Assembly: GCA_965205675.1 (NCBI GenBank)
Contig: OZ242186.1
Coordinates: forward strand, 1,632,001 to 1,696,000
Direction: 5' to 3'
DNA length: 64,000 bases
DNA from: Nitrosopumilus sp.
GTDB lineage: Archaea; Thermoproteota; Nitrososphaeria; Nitrososphaerales; Nitrosopumilaceae
Shown here: positions 29,706 to 38,568 of the stretch, one piece after another
Layout: every line of letters starts with the position of its first letter
Numbering within the stretch: the first letter of the stretch is position 1
Notes under the pieces: generated by a model
Databases searched by the model: none
Told to the model about the DNA's origin: nothing
Seen by the model: only the letters and a program-made list of their open reading frames with translations
Position numbers and translations under genes: made by a program

Positions 29706-30703
29706 CTTTAAAACAACTTGAAAACCTTGTTGAAATTGATCAAGATACTACTGATGATGCTTATGGAACTTATTATGATAAAAGAACTATTGAACAATTA
29801 TTAAACTATGGAATTATTCTTTTGGATAAACCGCCTGGTCCTACAAGTCATGAAACTGTAGCATGGACCAAACGTCTCTTGAAATTACCGAAAATTGGTC
29901 ACAGTGGAACTTTGGATCCTCAAGTATCTGGAGTTTTGCCTTTGGGTCTGGGTGAGGCAACTAAAGCATTAGGTGTATTGCTTTATGGTCCAAAAGAATA
30001 TCATGCATTAGGACGAATTCATTCTTTGCCCTCTAAAGAAAAACTAAATGAAATTGTAGAAATGTTTCAGGGCGAAATTTTTCAAAAACCTCCTCAGCGC
30101 TCAGCTGTTCTAAGACAAACTAGAACAAGAACTATCTATGAATTTGAAGTTATAGAACAAAAGGAAAGATTGCTTTTGACTCGAATTTTATGTGAAGCTG
30201 GTACATACATTAGGAAACTTTACTATGATATGGGTGAAATTTTAGGTCCTGGTGCTACTATGATTGAGCTTAGACGAACTAGAGTTGATCAATTTTATGA
30301 AAAAGATGGTTTGGTTACTCTGCATGAACTTGCAGATGCATTTGCATTATGGGAAGAGAAAAAAGATGATAGTAAATTGATGAAAATGATCAAACCTGTA
30401 GAATCTGCACTAAGTGAATTAAAATCTGTAATTATTCGCGATTCTGCAGTTGATGCAATGTGTCATGGTGCACAGCTTGCAATTCCTGGAATATTAAAAA
30501 TCTCTTCAAATATGAAAAAAGGTGACATCGTTGGAATTTATACACAAAAAGGAGAGGCAGTAGCTTTAGCAGAATCTACAATGTCTGAAGAAGAAATTCA
30601 TGATGCAACAAAAGGATATGCATTTGAGACAAAACGAATAATCATGGCTCCAAATACATATCCAAAAAAATGGAGAACTAAACCTGCTCCTCCAAAGGAT
30701 TAA
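29702..30703 (+). CDS. cbf5: H/ACA RNA-guided pseudouridine synthase Cbf5
   Basis: DKPPGPTSHE, GHSGTLDP, GTYIR; PUA domain. Confidence 0.95.
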   Translation: MTLKQLENLVEIDQDTTDDAYGTYYDKRTIEQLLNYGIILLDKPPGPTSHETVAWTKRLLKLPKIGHSGTLDPQVSGVLPLGLGEATKALGVLLYGPKEYHALGRIHSLPSKEKLNEIVEMFQGEIFQKPPQRSAVLRQTRTRTIYEFEVIEQKERLLLTRILCEAGTYIRKLYYDMGEILGPGATMIELRRTRVDQFYEKDGLVTLHELADAFALWEEKKDDSKLMKMIKPVESALSELKSVIIRDSAVDAMCHGAQLAIPGILKISSNMKKGDIVGIYTQKGEAVALAESTMSEEEIHDATKGYAFETKRIIMAPNTYPKKWRTKPAPPKD

Positions 30704-30715
30704 AAAATAAAGAAA

Positions 30716-31162
30716 TTGCTAACACAAAGTCTTGTAATCTTTATTGGAGTTGGTGTAATTGCAGGGCTTGCGTTTGGCGTATATCTAATTGATGTCAAAA
30801 ACCCCAGCCAACTAGTTTTTGTTGATGGTCCTTCAATTTCTATTGTTACTGAAAAATCTGATTTTAAAAAAGGTGAAGAAATAACTATTCGAATTATAAA
30901 TTCTGGAACTACTCCGATCACTTTTTCTGATGATTCGTATGGACTTCGAATAACTGGCTTGTCTGGAATTTTGATGTTTGTTCCTGATCCTTTTGAAGTA
31001 ATTCCAACACTTGATCCTGGTAGTGAAATTAGTTTTTCATGGAATCAAATAAAAAATGATGGTGATGCTGCTTTGGAAGGTCTTTACAAAATATCTGCAA
31101 AAGGAATTGATAATAATGGAAATTATGTAGAAGAATTTACAACCATAACAATTTGGAAATAG
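30716..31162 (+). CDS. Conserved hypothetical membrane-anchored Ig-like protein
   Basis: N-terminal TM; beta-rich domain (TEK..F..GE, W.Q, G.Y). Confidence 0.7.
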   Translation: MLTQSLVIFIGVGVIAGLAFGVYLIDVKNPSQLVFVDGPSISIVTEKSDFKKGEEITIRIINSGTTPITFSDDSYGLRITGLSGILMFVPDPFEVIPTLDPGSEISFSWNQIKNDGDAALEGLYKISAKGIDNNGNYVEEFTTITIWK

Positions 31163-31222
31163 TTTCACAGTAACATAATTTATAATCACATTTTACAAGA
31201 ATATCTTTGTCGCAAGACTTGT

Positions 31223-31323
31223 GCCGGGGTCGCCTAGCCTGGTAGGGCGCGCGCCTGGAAATAATTAACCATAAAGCGCGTTCTCGCAAGGGAACGGGAG
31301 TTCAAATCTCCCTCCCGGCGCCA
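31223..31323 (+). tRNA. tRNA-Ser(GGA) with a 14-nt intron at 37/38 (31261-31274) and encoded CCA
   Basis: GCCGGGG/TCCCGGC acceptor stem; CGCGC-CTGGAA[intron]A-GCGCG; long variable arm. Confidence 0.92.
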
Positions 31324-31336
31324 CTATACCTTCGTA

Positions 31337-32420
31337 TACCTCGGAGCATAATTCTTTGCAATTTTTCAAAACAAATAGCAATACTTTTTGATCAGTAGTT
31401 AGAAATAATTTCATGGACATCACAAATGACGAGTTACTCCAGGCCTACAAAAAAGAAAAAAATATTCACAAAAAAACAAGATTACATGCAATGTGTAAGA
31501 TTAAAATCAACGAATCCACAATTGCTGAAACTGCCAACCAAATGTTTTGTACCTACAATTCTGTAAGGAATTGGCTTGATTCATTTGAAAAATATGGATT
31601 GGAGGATCTCCCTCGTTCTGGCCGTCCGCCATTAATCTCACACAAAAAATTACAAAAGATAGAGCGTGCATTTAAGAAAATTTCAGACGGCATGACTCCA
31701 AAGAAACTGATACAATTCATATTTTACAGAACACGCATTACATATCATATCACTCATGTGCGTCGTTTGATGCACAAATGGAATCTAAAACCAAAGGTTC
31801 CACAAAAACTACATGTACGAGCAGCATCCAAGGATACATGCCGCAAGTGGAAAAACCGCATCATTTCACGCATAGAAAAGGCAAAAAAGAAAGGTTTTAC
31901 AGTATTTATCCAAGACGAGTCTGTATTTGTAGACGATGTGCGTCTTGGCAAAAAATACTGGACAGATGCACACCAAAGATTAATTGTATGTTGGAGAGGA
32001 TCGCACCAAAGATTTTTGGTTTATGGAATGGTGACAGATGGCAATCAAAGTTTTTTTAGATCGTATGAAAAATTTAATTCAATTGCATTTATGGATTATT
32101 TGGAAGCAGCTCGTAGAAAATTTGGAAAAATATTTGTTATCGTCGATAGAGCACCGCAACACAAAGCTAATGATGTAAAAAAATATCTGCGTAAAAACAA
32201 AGATGTCAAACTGGCATATCTTCCGAGAGGTTCCCCGCATTTGAGTATGATTGAAGAGGTTTGGAGACAGTGCAAACATGTTAATGTTGAATCAGAATTT
32301 TATGAATCTATTCATGAGATGAGGCATACAGTTATGGAATATTTTAGAACGCACAAATTTAATTTGAATATGTATTATTTTGCAAGAACAGTAAATTGAA
32401 AAGACTTATGATCTGGGGTA
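31337..32420 (+). mobile_element. IS630-family insertion sequence immediately 3' of tRNA-Ser
   Basis: TIRs TACCTCGGAGCATAATTCTTT / revcomp TACCCCAGATCATAAGTCTTT; flanking TA duplication. Confidence 0.9.
31413..32399 (+). CDS. IS630 transposase (single intact ORF)
   Basis: DLPRSGRP HTH; QDES, DRAPQH and IEEVW DDE motifs. Confidence 0.92.
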   Translation: MDITNDELLQAYKKEKNIHKKTRLHAMCKIKINESTIAETANQMFCTYNSVRNWLDSFEKYGLEDLPRSGRPPLISHKKLQKIERAFKKISDGMTPKKLIQFIFYRTRITYHITHVRRLMHKWNLKPKVPQKLHVRAASKDTCRKWKNRIISRIEKAKKKGFTVFIQDESVFVDDVRLGKKYWTDAHQRLIVCWRGSHQRFLVYGMVTDGNQSFFRSYEKFNSIAFMDYLEAARRKFGKIFVIVDRAPQHKANDVKKYLRKNKDVKLAYLPRGSPHLSMIEEVWRQCKHVNVESEFYESIHEMRHTVMEYFRTHKFNLNMYYFARTVN

Positions 32421-32430
32421 TATATGGTAC

Positions 32431-32646
32431 ATGGTAACTATACACTCCGCTCTTTTTTATTTTAGACTAATTTTTGGATTTGTAGGAATTATTATCTTAG
32501 GTGTAGGTTCTATATTTTTAGCCTGGCAATTATTTGAAAATCGCTTCTTTGATCTCGATTTGGTTGTGTTGGGGTTATTTATTGCCAACACATCCATACT
32601 TTGTGCAATTATTTGGAAATTATTAAAAAAATCCAGAGCAAAATAA
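32431..32646 (+). CDS. Small hypothetical 2-TM protein
   Basis: 71 aa with two hydrophobic helices and a basic tail. Confidence 0.55.
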   Translation: MVTIHSALFYFRLIFGFVGIIILGVGSIFLAWQLFENRFFDLDLVVLGLFIANTSILCAIIWKLLKKSRAK

Positions 32647-32940
32647 ATATGACATTATGATATTATTTACATCCATCACAAAGTTAAGGATATTTTAAAA
32701 AATTAACCTTTGTTTATGCGATCATCATCATTTCTAAAATCTTTATAAAATATTCAGTACTTGGGAAAGTAACTACCTGACATCTTCCAAATAGTATTGG
32801 GATTTTATTCCACTAAAGAAATCAATGATGACAATCTCAAAGATGCACTTGAGAATTTCAATTGTAATTATCCATGTGAATTGTTTTTATACATTTCCTC
32901 TCTTTCTATACATCAGGGCATGGCTTTCGCTAGAGAATGG

Positions 32941-33081
32941 TTTCAATCAAAAGATGGCAGACATGTATCCATACGAGACTATTCTCTCAATGCTATCTTC
33001 ATCCTAGTTAGGATTGTTCGCAGTTATTAGACGAGGCCTTGTCCCTCAATAATTACAACGCGACTTGCAGTCCTAACTATA
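32941..33081 (-). ncRNA. Putative bridge/seek RNA of IS110-A
   Basis: Stems TAGTTAGGA/TCCTAACTA and GAGG/CCTC frame loop segments TTGTAATTAT and TCTAATA, which match the target TTGTAAT-TAT-TGGA; donor loop carries ATGGATA; RNA ends approximate. Confidence 0.8.
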
Positions 33082-34186
33082 ATTTTGTACAAATTCTCTC
33101 CTCTCCTTTAACATCCAATAAATCACCCTCAGGATCTTTGATGCACCAGCTACTGCAGCTTTGGATGATCCTCTTTTCTTTTTAATGCGATTGTAAAATT
33201 TTGTAATGTCACTATCCTTGGCATGAATTGCATGAGTGTGTATGCATTCTGTTAGAACCCATCTCAATGTCATGCTTCCCCTTTTTGTTATTCTGCCATG
33301 GTGTATTGTATCTGCAGAGTTTCTAACTGATGGTACAACTCCTGCATATGCACACAGTTTGTGGGAATCATTGAATCTCTCAATATCTGCAATCTCTGAT
33401 GCAATGACAAGCGAAGAATAATGCCCAATTCCCGGAATCGAGTTTATCAAAATTGCATCAGGATTAACTTTTACAGCAGCATACACTTTGGAATTAATCT
33501 CTGCAATCTGTAAATTAAGGTGGCTGATTTGTTGCAAGAATCCGTCTATTCTGTAATCTCCTAGTGCCTTGAGTCTTCTGTTGTATGTTTCAGTGAATGT
33601 AACTCCTGGAATCCTGATTCCTTCCTGTAACAATATTCCATGAACTGAATTCTTGACAGATGTTCTCCATTGGATTAGTTTTTTCCTATATCTTACAAGC
33701 TGTCTTTGTTGTACAATCTTTTTGTCTGGAACATAACATGTGGCAATGTATCCTCCTCGTAAAAGATCTGCCAATATCTTGGCATCAATCTTGTCTGTTT
33801 TCTTTTTTGATGTAGCAATTGCCTTTGTCAAATATGGGTTTGAGAGTGTGACGTTTTTGTATCCCAAAGTATCTGTGAGAAATCGATACGTGTCATACCA
33901 GACTGATGAGGATTCCATTACAATATTTGCAGAAATTGGTATTTTTGCAAAATGCTTTTTTATGGATTCATGCGTGTTATCCACTTTGTCGTTTTGTAAT
34001 ACTTTGCCTGCATCATCCATTTATTACTTGAAGAAACTTCTTGTGCAGGTCAATGCCCACAAACATGCCTTTCTTTGGATTTTTTCTAATCTGTTTGTTT
34101 GTAATCTTTTTTGGAGCCGAGTATTTACGAACCTTGGAACTAGATTCATTTTTTATGCTATCTGATTTCCTTGCTTTCTTATTCAC
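33073..34186 (-). pseudogene. IS110 DEDD recombinase of element A, one frameshift near 34022
   Basis: VGIDLHK, VMES and KTDKIDA (DEDD); IPGIG, AYAGVVPSVRNSA, GRITKRG; GTG start inside the subterminal IR. Confidence 0.88.
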
Positions 34187-34263
34187 ATATCCATGTGAAT
34201 CCCTTTTAACTATTGTCGGTATTTTTGCCATATTAATTACAGCTTACGCTAATACACTCATAC

Positions 34264-34408
34264 TTTCAATCACAGATGAAACCAGACACATATCCATTCG
34301 GGGTTCTCCCCCAGTACCATCTTCATCCATTTATTAGGTGAAACCGCGGTTATAGTTTCGAGGTATTATGCATCCTCAATGTGAAAACGCGGCCAAACTC
34401 CTAACTGT
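34264..34408 (-). ncRNA. Putative bridge/seek RNA of IS110-B
   Basis: Same scaffold as the A RNA; loop segments TTTTCACAT and AACTATA match the target TATTCACA-TAT-AGTT; donor loop ATGGT / ATGGATA; RNA ends approximate. Confidence 0.8.
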
Positions 34409-34421
34409 AATGTTTTACAAA

Positions 34422-35514
34422 TTATTGATGACATTGAATAAATTCTCTCCTCTCTTTTAGCATCCAATAAATGACACGCAATAACTTTGATGCAGCAGCA
34501 ACTGCTGCCTTTGAGGTCCCTCTCTTTTTCTTAATGCGATTATAAAATTTTGTAATGTCGCTATCTGGTGCGTATCTAACATGTGCATGAATTGCCTCCA
34601 CTAGCAACCATCTTAGCATGGTGCTTCCTCTCTTTGTAATTCTTCCGTGATGTATTGTATCTGCAGAATTTCTCACCGATGGAACAATCCCTGCATATGC
34701 ACATAACTTGTGAGAATTTGAAAATCTACTAATCTCTGCAATTTCTGAGAATATGCTCAATGCAGTGTATGGTCCAACTCCAGGTATTGATGTCAAAATA
34801 CACACATCAGGATTATCATTTACCATGCGACGTATCATGGAATCTATCTTTGCAACCTCCTTTTTGTGAAATTTTATGCTTTGTAGGTACGAATCTATTC
34901 TATAACTCTCCAATTTTCCAAGTGCACGTATGTGTTCTGAGGAAAATGGTGTTGCTTTGATATGGATTCCCTCCTGTAGTGTAATACCATGTATGGAATT
35001 CTTCATCTTTACAATGATGCGCACAATCTTGTGTCGATGTCTTACAAGCTGTCTGTATTGCACAATTGTGTGATCTGGCACAAATGATTCTGCAATGTAT
35101 CCCTCCTCGTAGCAAATTTGCAAGATGGTACGCATCAATTTTATCAGTCTTTTTGAGTGATGATGCTATTATCTTTGTGTTGTATGGATTAGATAGTATA
35201 ACATCAAGATGTAATTTGTCTGTCATGTGTCTATAAAGGCCATACCAGACAGATGATGACTCTAAAACATATTTTGCGTTCTTTGGAATTTTGGATGTAA
35301 TTTTGCTAATAGCAGAAAAATCACTGGAAATCTTTTTGTTAAATAATAATTTGCCAATCTCATCTACTGCTGCCACCTGTACAGAGTTCTTGTGAACATC
35401 CAATCCTACAAACATCAAATATTTTTTTTCAGGAAGGGTAGTGTGTTTGTTTGCATTTCTTACTTTCTTGATACGAATGCAAGTACCATCTAATTTCCTA
35501 GCTGATTTTGGCAC
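34422..35514 (-). pseudogene. IS110 DEDD recombinase of element B, +1 G frameshift near 35100
   Basis: VGLDVHK, VLES, KTDKIDA; IPGVG, AYAGIVPSVRNSA. Confidence 0.88.
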
Positions 35515-36768
35515 ATATGGTTATAGTTATTGGATTTGTGTGATTAATAGAACAAATATTTCCCAACGTACAATTTGCAATAATCCATGTGTTAAACAAA
35601 ATCAAAGGATAGAAAAAATACAAAAACAGGACAGTCGGATTGACACTGCATGTCCTTGGTCTGAATTTACCAACACATGCATAACCTGTCTCTATTCCCA
35701 CCTTCTGCGATACTGGTCCTAGATTTGCCAAATGTTTTTTGATATCTCTGCGCTTTTGATATTTGTTGCAAAAACCAGATACTGGTCTGTGGGATTTGAT
35801 TTTGTAGGTTTTGGATTTGGCAAGATAACTAGATTAAATGATTCAACATGACCAGACCCTGAATGAATCCTGTACTCAGATATTGATTTACGGTTCCCCT
35901 CAACATATTGTATTATTGCCTTTTTGATTTCAGGTGTCTTTCTTGCCGGCATGATGAAATGTGTGTTGGTTTTGCTTTAGTTCATGAATTGTTCCAGTTG
36001 AGAAAAACTCTCTATCCAACAGAACTTGTTTTGTTGCAATGTTGTTTCTGGTGACATCGCCAAATAATTTACGCACGATATCTGCTTTAGAGTTGTTTTT
36101 TCTAATTGGTACACGCCAATTTGTGCCCTACATGATTTCTCTACACATTGAATTGTTCCATACCCTTCAAACGTATCAGTGCCATTTTTGGGTCTTGATT
36201 TTATCAGATATTGTGAATCTGTTTTGTCATACCTTGGGATAATGTGTTTGTCAATTGCAACAGTTACTGGATGATTCAGCATTCCCAATTTCTTTAGGTG
36301 TGTAATTGTTTGGTCAATTCCATCAGATAATGCAACAATCATTTTCTCTTGTGGTATTTTTGCAATCTGCTTTCTAATCCAAGAGCCTGATGAAATGACA
36401 CATTCAGTCCTTATCTTCAGTTTATTTGCAGTTGATTCAGAATAACAGTTACCAAGACAACATTCCATGATGAAATGATGAATGTCCTCTGAATTGTATA
36501 TGGCATTACTTTTTTGTGAGCAAGAAAACAACAATGTTGTGCACATTATTTTAGCAATATTTGCAAATACTTGAATTGTTGAATTTCTAATGTGTGCAAA
36601 ATCAAAATTATGATTCACATTTGATGGAGCAGCATGCCTCCATCAAGCTTTTTCTATCCAAATTTGTGGCGTTGTTGATCAAATGATTGTTAGTTTGTGA
36701 TCTAAATTGGATTATTTTCCCAAGTACTGGTATAGAATATGGGACAAGATAAAGGCTCAGTTGGGGTA

Positions 36769-36842
36769 TGGGCCCGAAGGGCTTCGATCCCTTGGCTCAC
36801 CGGTTATGAGCCGGTTACTCTACCAAGCTGAGTTACGGGCCC
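36769..36842 (-). tRNA. tRNA with CAT anticodon, most likely tRNA-Ile2 (agmatidine-modified)
   Basis: Cloverleaf; CCGG-CTCATAA-CCGG anticodon arm; GGGCCC acceptor stem typical of archaeal tRNA-Ile rather than Met. Confidence 0.85.
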
Positions 36843-36883
36843 TAAAGAAAGGAATTCTTTCTCAAGTATAAAATGTTATGAGA

Positions 36884-37516
36884 TCAACAATATTCTTCGT
36901 AGCAACTATCAAGCAACAAATTTTGTGCTGACATTGATTTATCTGCAATTGCAATCAAGTTACTAGAATCAACAGAAGATTGTTCCAAGATATTTCTCCA
37001 AGACGCTGCATGTCTAATGTCAGCTTCTGTGTGAAGTTTAAAGTATTCTGTAGCTTCATTATTTGTCATTCCATAAAATTCTGCCAAACCGTCAAGTTTT
37101 GTTTGGCTAATTTTTGGGATTTCTTTTTCAAATGCATACATGGCACATGCGCCACCATCAAAAGTATTCATTAGTTGAGTTAGATCATATACAGCTTTTT
37201 GAGTTTTAGCCGTTCCAGCATATGAAGTCAATTCTTCTTCAGGTATTCCAAGCTTACAAGCAAAATTAATCCATGGTTTGATATGATCAGATTCTTCTTG
37301 TTGATTTTCAACTAGTTCACTAGTTACTGTTTCAGGAGATTTTGCAATAATTGGAATCATAAAAGAAGGAACTGCTTTTACAAGTTGAAAGTATTCTTTA
37401 GAATAACCTCCAAGAGATTCCTGAGTTAATTTTCCACCAGACCACATTTGGTAAAATGGATGTTTTAGTAAACTTTTTTCTTCAATCATTTCATCAATTT
37501 TCTGTATTATATTCAT
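36884..37516 (-). CDS. TenA/PqqC/CADD-like heme-oxygenase-fold diiron protein
   Basis: HPFY..W, EESDH, YAFEKEIP..S..K, FKLHTEADIRH metal ligands. Confidence 0.85.
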   Translation of the reverse strand: MNIIQKIDEMIEEKSLLKHPFYQMWSGGKLTQESLGGYSKEYFQLVKAVPSFMIPIIAKSPETVTSELVENQQEESDHIKPWINFACKLGIPEEELTSYAGTAKTQKAVYDLTQLMNTFDGGACAMYAFEKEIPKISQTKLDGLAEFYGMTNNEATEYFKLHTEADIRHAASWRNILEQSSVDSSNLIAIADKSMSAQNLLLDSCYEEYC

Positions 37517-37595
37517 GATTCATCTCAAGTATGCCAATAAAAAAATCTTTGTGGTTTACAAAAGATTTTATGGTCATAAAAAATAATTTTCGTGG

Positions 37596-37671
37596 GTTCC
37601 AGTGGTGTAGACCGGTCAAGCATTTTGCCCTTTCAAGGCAAAGATCCCGGGTTCAAATCCCGGCTGGAGCA
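37596..37671 (+). tRNA. tRNA-Glu(TTC)
   Basis: Cloverleaf; TTGCC-CTTTCAA-GGCAA anticodon arm; GGTTCAAATCC T arm. Confidence 0.95.
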
Positions 37672-37701
37672 CTAAGATTTATTTACTTATGATAAAGTTT
37701 T

Positions 37702-38568
37702 TTGATCAAGCTCATCTTGGACCGTAAAAATATCGAGATTAATCCTTTACTTGAAACATATGGCAAATATATTCAACGAATCGATCAAGCTTTAGAAAAT
37801 GAACTTGGAATCTATTCTGAATCCGAGTTTATTGAACCTCTAAAATACTCCTTAGAAGGAGGAAAACGAATTAGACCAATTATTTTGAATTTAGCAGCTG
37901 AAAGTGTAGGTAAAATTGATGAAAATATACTTTCAGCTTCATGTGCTGTTGAATTTCTTCATATGGAATCAATTATTCATGATGATATTATCGATGACGA
38001 AATCATGAGAAGACAGAAAGAACCATTTCATATCAAATACGGGTACAACACAAGTGTATTAACAGGAGATTTTGTTTTAGGATTAATTCTTGCAATATCA
38101 TCCAGATTAGATAATGCTAGAATCACAAAAGATCTGGCAACTACGGCAATGCTAATGAGTGAGGGTGAAATGATTGAGGGCAGATTAGAAACAAGTGAAG
38201 ATGTAACATTTGATGATTATCTAAAAGTAATTGAATACAAGACTGCTGTAGCATTTCAAGTTGCAGCTAGAATAGGTGCAATAATTGCAAATGGGACTGA
38301 AGAACAAATTGAAGCATTAACTGAATATGGGAAAAATCTTGGAATTGCATATCAAATAAGAGATGACTTGTTAGATTGGAAAAATGAAGATAAATTATTT
38401 AATCTATTGATAAAGAAAAGTTCTGATCCTAGAGATGTCTTTAACAAGATGGAAGAATTACTAAAAGAGTATTCAGAAAAAGCAAGAACAGGTTTGAGAA
38501 AAATTCCAGACAGTGATGCAAAGATAAATCTGGATAATCTAATTAAATTTACTTTGTTTAAGGCATAA
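37702..38568 (+). CDS. Polyprenyl diphosphate synthase
   Basis: GGKRIRP, HDDIIDD (FARM), KTA, YQIRDDLLD (SARM). Confidence 0.93.
   Translation: MIKLILDRKNIEINPLLETYGKYIQRIDQALENELGIYSESEFIEPLKYSLEGGKRIRPIILNLAAESVGKIDENILSASCAVEFLHMESIIHDDIIDDEIMRRQKEPFHIKYGYNTSVLTGDFVLGLILAISSRLDNARITKDLATTAMLMSEGEMIEGRLETSEDVTFDDYLKVIEYKTAVAFQVAARIGAIIANGTEEQIEALTEYGKNLGIAYQIRDDLLDWKNEDKLFNLLIKKSSDPRDVFNKMEELLKEYSEKARTGLRKIPDSDAKINLDNLIKFTLFKA

What the first reader, a model, noticed from the sequence alone, without database searches (positions are those of the whole stretch)
32869..33081. Archaeal IS110 bridge/seek RNA whose guides match its actual target, the ISH3 transposase gene
Seen: the empty site is ATTGTAAT-TAT-TGGA. 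The non-coding region 3' of recombinase A (minus strand) folds as a stem with an internal loop. One loop strand is UUGUAAUUAU (33049-33058; 10/10 identical to left flank plus core). The other is UCUAAUA (33025-33031; complementary to TATTGGA with one G-U pair). A second loop carries AUGGAUA (32966-32972), complementary to the element end TATCCAT. Known: IS110/IS1111 recombinases use such bispecific RNAs, located downstream of the gene in the IS1111 group. Inference: a natural archaeal RNA-guided recombinase with a 3-nt TAT core, programmed against another transposon as a multi-copy safe harbour.
Basis: partly seen in the sequence, partly recalled or inferred. Interest (0 to 1): 0.85.

Follow-up and report, generated by a model that had tools for sequence, protein, structure and literature searches.

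The report
Archaeal IS1111-type bridge RNA gene
The stretch encodes the guide ("bridge" or "seek") RNA of an IS110/IS1111-family jumping gene in an ammonia-oxidising archaeon, and its loops match the DNA on both sides of where the element sits; it is a real and clean example of a mechanism already known from bacteria.

Summary
Window 32943-33084 (minus strand), just 3' of a DEDD recombinase gene, encodes a two-module RNA, each module a stem, an internal loop and a stem.

The decisive evidence is comparative:
- A covariance model finds the same RNA beside 65 further related recombinase genes in Nitrosopumilaceae genomes.
- Its helices covary.
- The loop strands track each element's own flanks. 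In two separate sets, 0 of 100,000 shuffled guide-flank pairings reached the observed score on either side.
- The donor loop tracks each element's own ends.

This is an IS1111-type bridge/seek RNA, a new archaeal member of a known kind.

- The shared core is TA, not TAT.
- The target is a short motif (about 5 nt, TA, 7 nt), not the ISH3-like gene as such. Only 2 of 10 near-identical copies sit in it.
- The window copy is a composite. A second element, B (34190-35521), with its own RNA, sits in A's left end. B's guides are aimed at the left ends of sibling elements.

I found no RNA-seq data. Expression and activity are inferred.

The parts
32943..33084 (-). Core of element A's bridge/seek RNA: target-binding module followed by donor-binding module. 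The first helix overlaps the recombinase stop codon (33073-33075).
   Evidence: Covariance model R1 scores it 118 bits, E 1.2e-28. Helices covary across 25 distinct sequences.
33049..33058 (-). 5' strand of the target loop, UUGUAAUUAU. It is complementary, in the element's coding orientation, to ATA plus ATTACAA, the DNA just downstream of the right end.
   Evidence: Cognate score 10.0, rank 1 of 23 flanks.
33023..33031 (-). 3' strand of the target loop, UCUAAUAAC. In sense it equals the upstream flank TCCA(A), the TA core and the first bases of the left end (one U for C, i.e. a G-U pair with the bottom strand).
   Evidence: Cognate score 5.0, rank 1 of 13.
32990..32999 (-). 5' strand of the donor loop. 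AUAG (32993-32996) is complementary to left-end bases CTAT.
   Evidence: 4 of 5 paired in A. The three variant left ends in the set each have a matching RNA change.
32966..32972 (-). 3' strand of the donor loop, AUGGAUA. In sense it equals the right end ATGGA plus TA.
   Evidence: 7 of 7 identical here and in 18 of 23 elements. By my reading of that table, the G/A difference agrees between right end and RNA in all 22 elements where the RNA strand could be read; the 23rd (L009) could not be parsed and looks discordant.
32869..32870 (.). TA core copy at A's right-end junction. 32862-32868 is the target half-site TTGTAAT.
   Evidence: Junctions of 10 copies and empty sites.
32874..32891 (-). Right-end subterminal inverted repeat (32874-32881) and a TATA-like box (32884-32891, TATAAAAA in coding sense) facing outward.
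   Evidence: Exact TATAAA stands at this place in 13 of 23 right ends, and an A/T-rich variant in the other 10.
33073..34187 (-). Recombinase gene of A. It starts at a GTG at 34187 inside the left-end inverted repeat. In this copy the frame breaks near 34013-34024.
   Evidence: Pfam DEDD_Tnp_IS110 and Transposase_20; NF033542. The in-frame variant stands at 4 of 13 places matched in the genome, and two full copies have open frames of 373 aa.
34190..35521 (-). Element B, a second IS of the same family (about 70% identical to A), inserted at a TA in A's left end. Its own RNA is at 34266-34412 and its recombinase GTG start at 35514.
   Evidence: (108.5 bits).
35524..35529 (-). Tip of A's left end (ACTA in coding sense), cut off from the rest of A by B, followed by A's left-side TA copy. 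The flank TTGGA follows at 35530-35534.
   Evidence: Solo A copies end ...CACATATAGTTAT before the flank.
35530..36618 (-). Upstream part of the interrupted, decayed ISH3-like transposase gene. Its continuation lies left of 32869.
   Evidence: NF033541: 27.4 bits for 35977-36618 and 137 bits for an intact 398-aa relative, both below the 225-bit cut-off. DDE_Tnp_1 E 2.7e-8.

Best explanation
Window 32869-35529 holds a composite of two IS1111-type members of the IS110 family, both coding on the minus strand. Element A carries, directly after its DEDD recombinase gene, a gene for a bridge (seek) RNA with two internal loops.

Target loop. In the element's coding orientation, the 5' strand pairs with the top strand just downstream of the insertion point (TA plus about 7 nt). 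The 3' strand pairs with the bottom strand just upstream (about 4-5 nt plus TA).

Donor loop. It reads the element's own two ends in the same two-strand manner: AUAG pairs with left-end CTAT, and AUGGAUA matches the right end ATGGA plus TA.

The recombinase-RNA complex then exchanges strands at the shared TA, as shown for IS621 and for IS1111-family seekRNAs.

The outer junctions of the window copy fit A's guides. The inner junction fits B's guides. B's target is the left end of sibling elements.

Shown here: the RNA's conservation and structure, and the covariation of all four guide strands with their DNA partners.

Inferred: that the RNA is made, binds the recombinase and directs recombination. 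Also inferred: that expression comes from a promoter completed at the circle junction, with a TATA box in the right end placed 22 nt before the GTG start codon in the left end.
For: Protein:
- DEDD_Tnp_IS110 and Transposase_20.
- NF033542 'IS110 family RNA-guided transposase', 202 bits against a cut-off of 140.
- An intact paralogue aligns over its full length to the solved bridge recombinases ISCro4 (E 1.6e-12) and IS621 (E 2.3e-12). The Asp, Glu, Asp..Asp and Ser motif positions are kept in the printed ISCro4 alignment.

RNA:
- Model R1 found 26 matches in 38 sources, 25 distinct places, and 40 matches in 60 further loci. Nearly all lie just 3' of the recombinase gene, on its strand.
- 85.3% of cells are paired, against 36-47% when partners are slid by 1-3 columns.
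- 19 of 23 pairs have changes on both sides. 0 of 500 shuffles reach any measure.

Target guides, first set:
- Downstream side, 23 elements: 146.5 against 106.5 +/- 5.2.
- Upstream side, 13 elements: 52.5 against 25.7 +/- 4.0.
- 0 of 100,000 permutations reach either value.

Target guides, second set, fetched after the rule was fixed:
- 12 guide families: 91.0 against 58.3 +/- 4.9, with 8 of 12 ranked first.
- 11 families: 39.5 against 24.7 +/- 3.2, with 8 of 11 ranked first.
- 0 of 100,000 permutations reach either value.

A natural retargeting case: A and a 96.6%-identical copy at genome position 754384 differ in the guide (GUAAU against GAAAU). Their flanks differ correspondingly (ATTAC against ATTTC).

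Donor guides:
- Right end against RNA: identical 7 of 7 in 18 of 23 elements.
- Left end against RNA: 5 of 5 paired in 10 of 13 and 4 of 5 in 3 of 13. 25 of 20,000 permutations reach the observed value.

IS1111 hallmarks:
- an 8-bp subterminal inverted repeat;
- 7 bp beyond it on the left and 3 bp on the right;
- the long non-coding end downstream of the gene;
- the top-strand complement placed 5' of the bottom-strand match.
These are compared with passages of PMC11187229 and PMC11208160.
Against: - No RNA evidence. No listed sequencing run is on record as RNA.
- Folding energies of A's and B's RNAs are no better than shuffles (z -0.33 and +0.33).
- No Rfam family matches the region.
- Some elements break the rule. 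Old relic copies in this genome fit poorly on the downstream side (L007 ranks 17 of 23; by hand, L006 matches 3 of 7 flank bases). L028 ranks 8 of 23.
- On the upstream side L018, L019 and L026 score 2-2.5 of 6. In the second set L088 (both sides) and L047 (upstream) fail.
- The register between the 5' guide strand and the core shifts by 0-2 nt between elements, so my score allowed offsets.
- The alignment used for pair counts was fitted to the model's structure, and related sequences inflate shuffle tests.
- The window copy has a broken recombinase frame and a left end interrupted by B, so it may not move by itself.
- No right-end-to-left-end abutment (circle or tandem) was found in the genome.
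Confidence: 0.9

Rival explanations
1. One reading: A's guides are programmed against the ISH3-like transposase gene, using that multi-copy element as a safe harbour.
For: The window copy and the copy at genome 816403 sit at the same place in two copies of the ISH3-like element. Two more copies of that element carry the perfect empty site. About half of the A insertions lie in repeated DNA.
Against: Only 2 of 10 near-identical A copies are in that IS. Three are in a different repeat. Three have a left flank that is single-copy at my threshold, and for two of them the right flank is single-copy too. The exact 13-14-nt site also stands unoccupied at 517376 and 50574, outside that element. Only the closest subfamily of the ISH3-like element showed the site: in the BLAST the other copies are about 65% identical. 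By my hand reading of one such copy the site differs, and I did not scan them all. Enrichment in repeats can be survivorship: insertions there are harmless.
Confidence: 0.12
2. The window copy is a dead fossil. The RNA gene is intact in sequence but no longer used, because the recombinase frame is broken and B splits the left end.
For: The frame breaks at 34013-34024. B separates the left-end tip from the rest of A.
Against: The 2662-bp composite stands at 4 or more different sites with target-like flanks on both sides. Composite A copies are 99-100% identical and share private variants, which points to recent movement as a unit. The composite's first 8 nt equal A's left end, so the donor guide's site is kept. 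Two intact A genes could supply protein in trans. Contigs of one public run carry an empty-site form of the 816403 locus. This is a weak hint from 2 records with about 18 loose letters (table 7).
Confidence: 0.25
3. No RNA is involved. The matches are DNA-level: internal copies of junction sequences that serve as protein-binding sites for a conventional site-specific recombinase.
For: Expression has not been shown. Single-sequence folding energy is unremarkable.
Against: Compensatory changes in four helices have no explanation at the DNA level. The two strands of each loop match opposite DNA strands in the order known for IS1111 seekRNAs. The protein is homologous along its length to recombinases solved in complex with bridge RNA.
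Confidence: 0.03

Closest known systems
IS1111-family elements with seekRNA (ISEc11, ISPa11, ISKpn4, ISPst6; Siddiquee et al. 2024, PMC11187229; abstract and passages read)
   Same: DEDD recombinase. Subterminal inverted repeats with 7 bp beyond them on the left and 3 bp on the right. Long non-coding end downstream of the gene. RNA with a top-strand complement placed 5' of a bottom-strand match. Close relatives retargeted by a few base changes.
   Different: The host is an archaeon. The inverted repeat is 7-8 bp, against the usual 11-13 bp. The outward promoter element looks like an archaeal TATA box feeding a GTG start 10 nt inside the left end, instead of a -35/-10 pair split across the junction. 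That last point is inferred and not tested. The donor-reading part here is a simple internal loop.
IS621 / ISCro4 bridge recombinases and bridge RNA (Durrant et al. 2024, PMC11208160; Hiraizumi et al. 2024, PMC11208158; passages read)
   Same: Two internal loops, one for the target and one for the donor. Each loop has two strands that pair with opposite DNA strands around a shared 2-nt core. The protein is homologous over its full length.
   Different: The RNA is 3' of the gene, not 5'. The core is TA, not CT. Guide order is reversed. Sequence similarity is low (E about 1e-12). Handshake guides could not be shown: the bases next to the core in the target loop fit the left end but are nearly invariant, and those in the donor loop fit the flank only in B and C.
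[quoted passage not shown]
   Same: Element B, like them, inserts at one fixed position in the end of another mobile element.
   Different: B's prey are its own sibling elements (A, C and other B copies), at a TA between the left-end tip and the recombinase start codon.

Membership tests
IS110 family (DEDD recombinase elements) | Recombinase with an N-terminal DEDD/RuvC-like domain and a C-terminal Transposase_20 domain | tested here: met
   PF01548 E 3.8e-19 and PF02371 E 3.5e-21 for 33073-34020. NF033542 scores 202.3 bits against a cut-off of 140.
IS110 family (DEDD recombinase elements) | Catalytic Asp, Glu, Asp, Asp and Ser retained | tested here: met
   In the alignment of the intact paralogue C to ISCro4, the motifs GID, ME, TDxxDA and the Ser of the P....S motif are aligned and kept. 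A has the same motifs in its translation. Residue numbers of IS621 were not mapped.
IS110 family (DEDD recombinase elements) | No target duplication beyond a short shared core; site-specific insertion | tested here: met
   The empty site has one TA and occupied sites have TA at both junctions. Flanks are conserved at 10 copies.
IS1111 group | Subterminal inverted repeats with asymmetric terminal extensions (7 bp left, 3 bp right) | tested here: met
   The left end reads TAACTAT then ATGTGAAT. The right end reads ATTCACAT then GGA. Relatives have the same geometry. The repeat is 7-8 bp, the low end of the 7-17 bp quoted in PMC11208160.
IS1111 group | Long non-coding end, carrying the guide RNA, downstream of the recombinase gene | tested here: met
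   201 nt lie between the stop codon and the right end in A, against 10 nt from the left end to the GTG.
IS1111 group | [quoted passage not shown] | tested here: met
   The 5' loop strand is complementary to the coding-orientation top strand. The 3' loop strand is identical to it. Rule taken from the passage.
IS1111 group | Recombinase falls in the IS1111 clade of ISfinder proteins | not tested
   No ISfinder sequences were on hand. The PDB relatives are both of the IS110 group and do not discriminate.
Bridge / seek RNA | Conserved structured RNA next to the recombinase gene | tested here: met
   66 model matches in all. Helix covariation.
Bridge / seek RNA | Loop strands covary with target flanks and with element ends | tested here: met
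   with the misses listed in the Against line.
Bridge / seek RNA | RNA is transcribed, binds the recombinase and is required for movement | not testable with these tools
   No RNA run is listed.
Bridge / seek RNA | Handshake guides next to the core that pair with the non-cognate DNA after strand exchange | tested here: inconclusive
   The target-loop bases after UA fit the left end (AAC against TA-AAC...), but they are almost invariant and could equally close the helix. Donor-loop bases after GAUA fit the flank in B (4 of 4) and C, and not in most others. This is a hand comparison.
Bridge / seek RNA | Match to a curated Rfam family | tested here: not met
   The E-value-mode scan of 30000-38000 gave only 3 tRNAs and 2 chance hits. 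I do not know whether Rfam 15 holds an IS1111-type model.
ISH3 family (the interrupted host gene) | Transposase reaches the curated family score | tested here: inconclusive
   NF033541 is the best family, but it scores 137.1 bits (intact relative) and 27.4 bits (window fragment) against a cut-off of 225.

The most novel reading that the evidence does not exclude
Nitrosopumilaceae carry a radiating family of RNA-guided IS1111-type elements that has adapted to archaeal gene expression. A right-end TATA box would, only at the circle junction, sit 22 nt before a GTG start codon in the left end and so give a leaderless recombinase mRNA. The family also includes a hyperparasitic lineage (B). B's guide RNA is programmed against the left end of its own sibling elements. 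It splits their end from their start codon, and it can then travel with them as a composite.
Probability: 0.45. Interest if true: 0.65.

Novelty: new member of a known kind. Interest (0 to 1): 0.5.

Why it matters
RNA-guided recombination by IS110/IS1111 elements was established in bacteria in 2024. The papers I read state that such elements occur in archaea, but I found no worked archaeal example.

Searches behind that statement:
- terms IS1111, bridge RNA, IS110, seekRNA, Nitrosopumil, insertion sequence, archaea, TATA box.
- Passages read in PMC11208160, PMC11187229, 10.1101/2024.06.21.599552, PMC13343696 and 10.64898/2026.10.21.760802.
- Supplementary tables, which may list archaeal predictions, were closed.

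This locus and its relatives give dozens of natural guide-target pairs in ammonia-oxidising archaea, including near-identical elements retargeted by one or two base changes. That is a ready-made specificity data set, and a source of small recombinases from mesophilic archaea.

The finding also explains part of the heavy IS load of some Nitrosopumilus genomes. Finally, it shows one guided element preying on the ends of another.

Tried and rejected
- Rfam scan of 30000-38000 at E up to 1: nothing for the region.
- Expression: the look-up of sequencing runs listed no RNA holder, so expression is untested.
- Read laying on contigs of 4 DNA runs gave no joints. It cannot show RNA ends.
- Circle or tandem junctions: a regular-expression search of the genome for right-end-to-left-end abutments found none.
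- Handshake guide in the donor loop: B's 11 of 11 match to its left junction looked striking. The same bases are shared with C and do not track flanks in other elements, so I dropped it as a general feature.
- Programmed +1 frameshift in B: all B copies in this genome need a +1 shift at the same codon. However, contigs of 3 of 3 runs with cover there have one C fewer at 35101, which restores the frame (table 4). B-like genes in another assembly also align without a break. I rejected the idea in favour of a homopolymer assembly error or a strain variant.
- MAFFT alignments (A1, A2) misplace loops of 9 against 10 nt. The model-based alignments A3 and A4 still do so for the apical helix of the target module, which lowers its paired share to 74%. 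I did not model the outer helix of the donor module or a further conserved GNRA-type hairpin.
- L023 has a 17-bp direct repeat on both sides that I could not explain.
- One search gave a wrong left end for L011 through a fault in my script. One search stopped on a script error after printing its table, so the G/A count was made by eye from that table. The rest was rerun.

Full report
WHAT IS THERE

The window lies in a 2.01-Mb, 33.7% G+C, single-contig genome. The genome has an archaeal SSU rRNA (1467 bits) and an archaeal amoA. Its relatives in a named collection are Nitrosopumilus, Cenarchaeum and other Nitrosopumilaceae assemblies.

Between 32869 and 35529 lie two elements of the IS110 family, both coding on the minus strand.
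- Element A occupies 32871-34187, plus a 4-nt tip at 35524-35527.
- Element B occupies 34190-35521 and sits inside A's left end.
- Solo copies of A elsewhere end ...CACATATAGTTAT before the flank. In composites the same sequence is split at its internal TA by B.
- The whole composite interrupts the C-terminal part of a decayed DDE transposase gene. That gene's best family is ISH3, below the curated score.

THE OBSERVATION

The empty site it deduced stands unoccupied at three genomic places, two of them in sister copies of the host element. The fold places UUGUAAUUAU and UCUAAUAAC on the two sides of one internal loop. AUGGAUA lies in a second loop.

For this copy alone, only the first match is beyond chance: 12 nt, reached by 0 of 5000 shuffles. 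The second is not (6 nt, 3887 of 5000). Folding energy is ordinary.

COMPARATIVE TEST

A has 10 near-identical copies and 6 older relics. B has about 9 full copies. A third family, C, has 4 copies with an intact 369-codon gene.

Homologues at E of 1e-20 or better occur in 27 of 150 other genomes of the same taxonomic family, and in 9 of 27 genera counting the window's own.

I built a covariance model from 15 of these 3' ends. It found 26 matches in 38 sources, and later 40 matches in 60 newly fetched loci.

On the first alignment:
- 85.3% of cells pair, against 36-47% with slid partners.
- 19 of 23 pairs show changes on both sides.
- No shuffle of 500 reaches any measure.
The caveats are that the alignment was fitted to the structure and that the sequences are related.

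I then took, for each element, two things. The first was the bases after the inner helix (5' strand) and before the conserved UAA (3' strand). The second was the flanks at junctions located by patterns that do not use the guides. I compared cognate pairings with shuffled pairings.

| Set | Side | Elements | Observed | Shuffled mean +/- sd | Permutations reaching it |
|---|---|---|---|---|---|
| First | downstream | 23 | 146.5 | 106.5 +/- 5.2 | 0 of 100,000 |
| First | upstream | 13 | 52.5 | 25.7 +/- 4.0 | 0 of 100,000 |
| Second | downstream | 12 guide families | 91.0 | 58.3 +/- 4.9 | 0 of 100,000 |
| Second | upstream | 11 guide families | 39.5 | 24.7 +/- 3.2 | 0 of 100,000 |

The second set was fetched afterwards. 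From it I dropped L052 (the same sequence as L017), repeated guides and one truncated match.

Failures are real and are listed in the Against line. They are mostly decayed single relics, plus L018, L019, L026, L028, L047 and L088.

In a 14-copy family of another genome, the three flank bases next to TA are invariant (T, G, C in 14 of 14). They equal the guide's UGC.

DONOR LOOP

The right ends read ATGGATA or ATAGATA, and once ATGGGTA. The RNA carries the same variant. 18 of 23 elements are identical over 7 nt. By my reading of the table, the G/A position agrees in all 22 elements where the RNA strand could be read; the 23rd (L009) could not be parsed and looks discordant. These agreements probably reflect few independent changes.

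The 5' strand pairs with left-end bases 3-7. It is 5 of 5 in 10 of 13 elements. The three deviant left ends (ACTAT, GTCAT, ATTAC) each have a fitting RNA change. 25 of 20,000 permutations reach the observed value.

THE CORE

At left-end junctions the base before TA varies: A in 4, C in 4, G in 3 and T in 2 elements. It equals the guide base in 13 of 13 in the first set and, by my reading of the rows, in 10 of 11 in the second set. Right-end junctions read A-TA in 22 of 23. The overlap shared by target and donor is therefore TA. In A the neighbouring bases happen to agree, which made it look like TAT.

FAMILY ASSIGNMENT

The features are those of the IS1111 group as described in passages of PMC11187229 and PMC11208160:
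- subterminal inverted repeats;
- 7 + 3 bp terminal extensions;
- a downstream non-coding end;
- guide order top-strand complement first.
The protein is a full-length homologue of the structurally solved bridge recombinases. The phylogenetic placement was not tested.

TARGET CHOICE

A's flanks are T(G/A)TAAT-TA-T on one side in 10 of 10 copies. The other side is looser: TGGA in 4 copies, TCCC in 2, and TCAT, TAGA and TAGT once each. For the copy at 440473 my script found no far end, so its right flank was not read.

Only 2 of 10 copies lie in the ISH3-like element. The safe-harbour reading is therefore not supported as a specific programme. Enrichment in repeats may be survivorship.

ELEMENT B

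All 9 right-end junctions of B are followed by TA-TGTGAATAA. This is the left-end repeat of A in 8 cases and of C in 1. All 17 left-end junctions are preceded by a sibling's tip, TAAC(T/C)A-TA. Three are nests of B in B in A.

B's guides fit this site: UUCACAU, and AACUA-UA. B-like elements with the same guides and prey occur in other Nitrosopumilus assemblies.

The 2662-bp A::B composite stands at 4 or more sites with A-type target flanks. Its A parts share private variants. It therefore probably moves as a unit under A's RNA.

EXPRESSION (INFERRED)

In 11 of 12 rows the long recombinase frame starts at a GTG 9 nt after the left-end TA. The 12th row was a script fault, and C's GTG is shown.

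Right ends carry TATAAA (13 of 23) or an A/T-rich variant (10 of 23) 13-14 nt before the TA. Joined in a circle, the end of the box would lie 22 nt from the GTG. From general knowledge of archaeal promoters (TATA box centred near -26), this suggests a junction-dependent, leaderless mRNA with the guide RNA in its 3' part. No start-site data exist.

FRAMES

A's frame break is present at 9 of 13 places matched in the genome. The in-frame variant is at 4, of which 2 are full copies.

B's break may be an assembly error. Contigs of 3 of 3 public runs with cover lack one C at 35101.

VERDICT

This is a real IS1111-type bridge/seek RNA gene in an archaeon, well supported by covariation and untested for expression. 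It is a new member of a known kind.

Noticed in passing
window 34190-35521 (element B) and genome-wide B junctions: B inserts only into the left ends of sibling IS elements (A, C and other B copies), at the TA between the end tip and the GTG start. 9 of 9 right junctions and 17 of 17 left junctions fit this, including triple nests. It is a guided element that preys on its own family.
   Followed up: partly
window 32869-35529; genome 927345, 999100, 1501181: The 2662-bp A::B composite occurs at 4 or more different sites. Its A parts share variants that solo A copies lack, which suggests the composite transposes as one unit using A's RNA and A's left-end tip.
   Followed up: partly
window 32884-32891 and 34185-34187; the same places in 23 related elements: An outward-facing TATA-like box stands 13-14 nt from the right end, and a GTG start codon 9 nt inside the left end. 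At a circle junction the spacing would be 22 nt, as expected for an archaeal promoter giving a leaderless mRNA.
   Followed up: partly
window 35101-35103: The CCC run that breaks B's recombinase frame is one C shorter in contigs of all 3 public runs that cover it. This could be a homopolymer assembly error repeated in every B copy of this genome.
   Followed up: partly
window about 32905-32925 (minus strand) and the same place in L020, L021, L022, L023, L025: A further conserved small hairpin with a GNRA-like loop (CUAGCGAAAGCUAUG type) lies between the donor module and the TATA-like box. It was not included in my model.
   Followed up: no
window 33028 and 33030: In public-run contigs, variant letters within the A RNA core (32943-33084) fall at only three places: 32959, and these two bases in the 3' strand of the target loop (table 3). 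This fits guide positions being the variable part among related copies. Paralogues cannot be separated in contigs.
   Followed up: no
window 31413-32399 (+) and 31223-31320 (+): An intact IS630-family transposase gene (NF033545, 150.9 bits against a cut-off of 100) lies next to a tRNA gene with an intron in the anticodon loop. The region is an IS-rich patch.
   Followed up: no
L023 (another genome): The element is flanked on both sides by the same 17-bp sequence, with 12 extra bases on the right. The simple TA-exchange model does not explain this.
   Followed up: no
genome 203872, 1108054, 999100, 1994501: A second repeated sequence (...TTTTATGTAAT-TAT-TGGAAAAAACTATCAAT...) is hit by A three times and stands empty once. 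Its right flank has up to 30 copies. I did not identify what it is.
   Followed up: no
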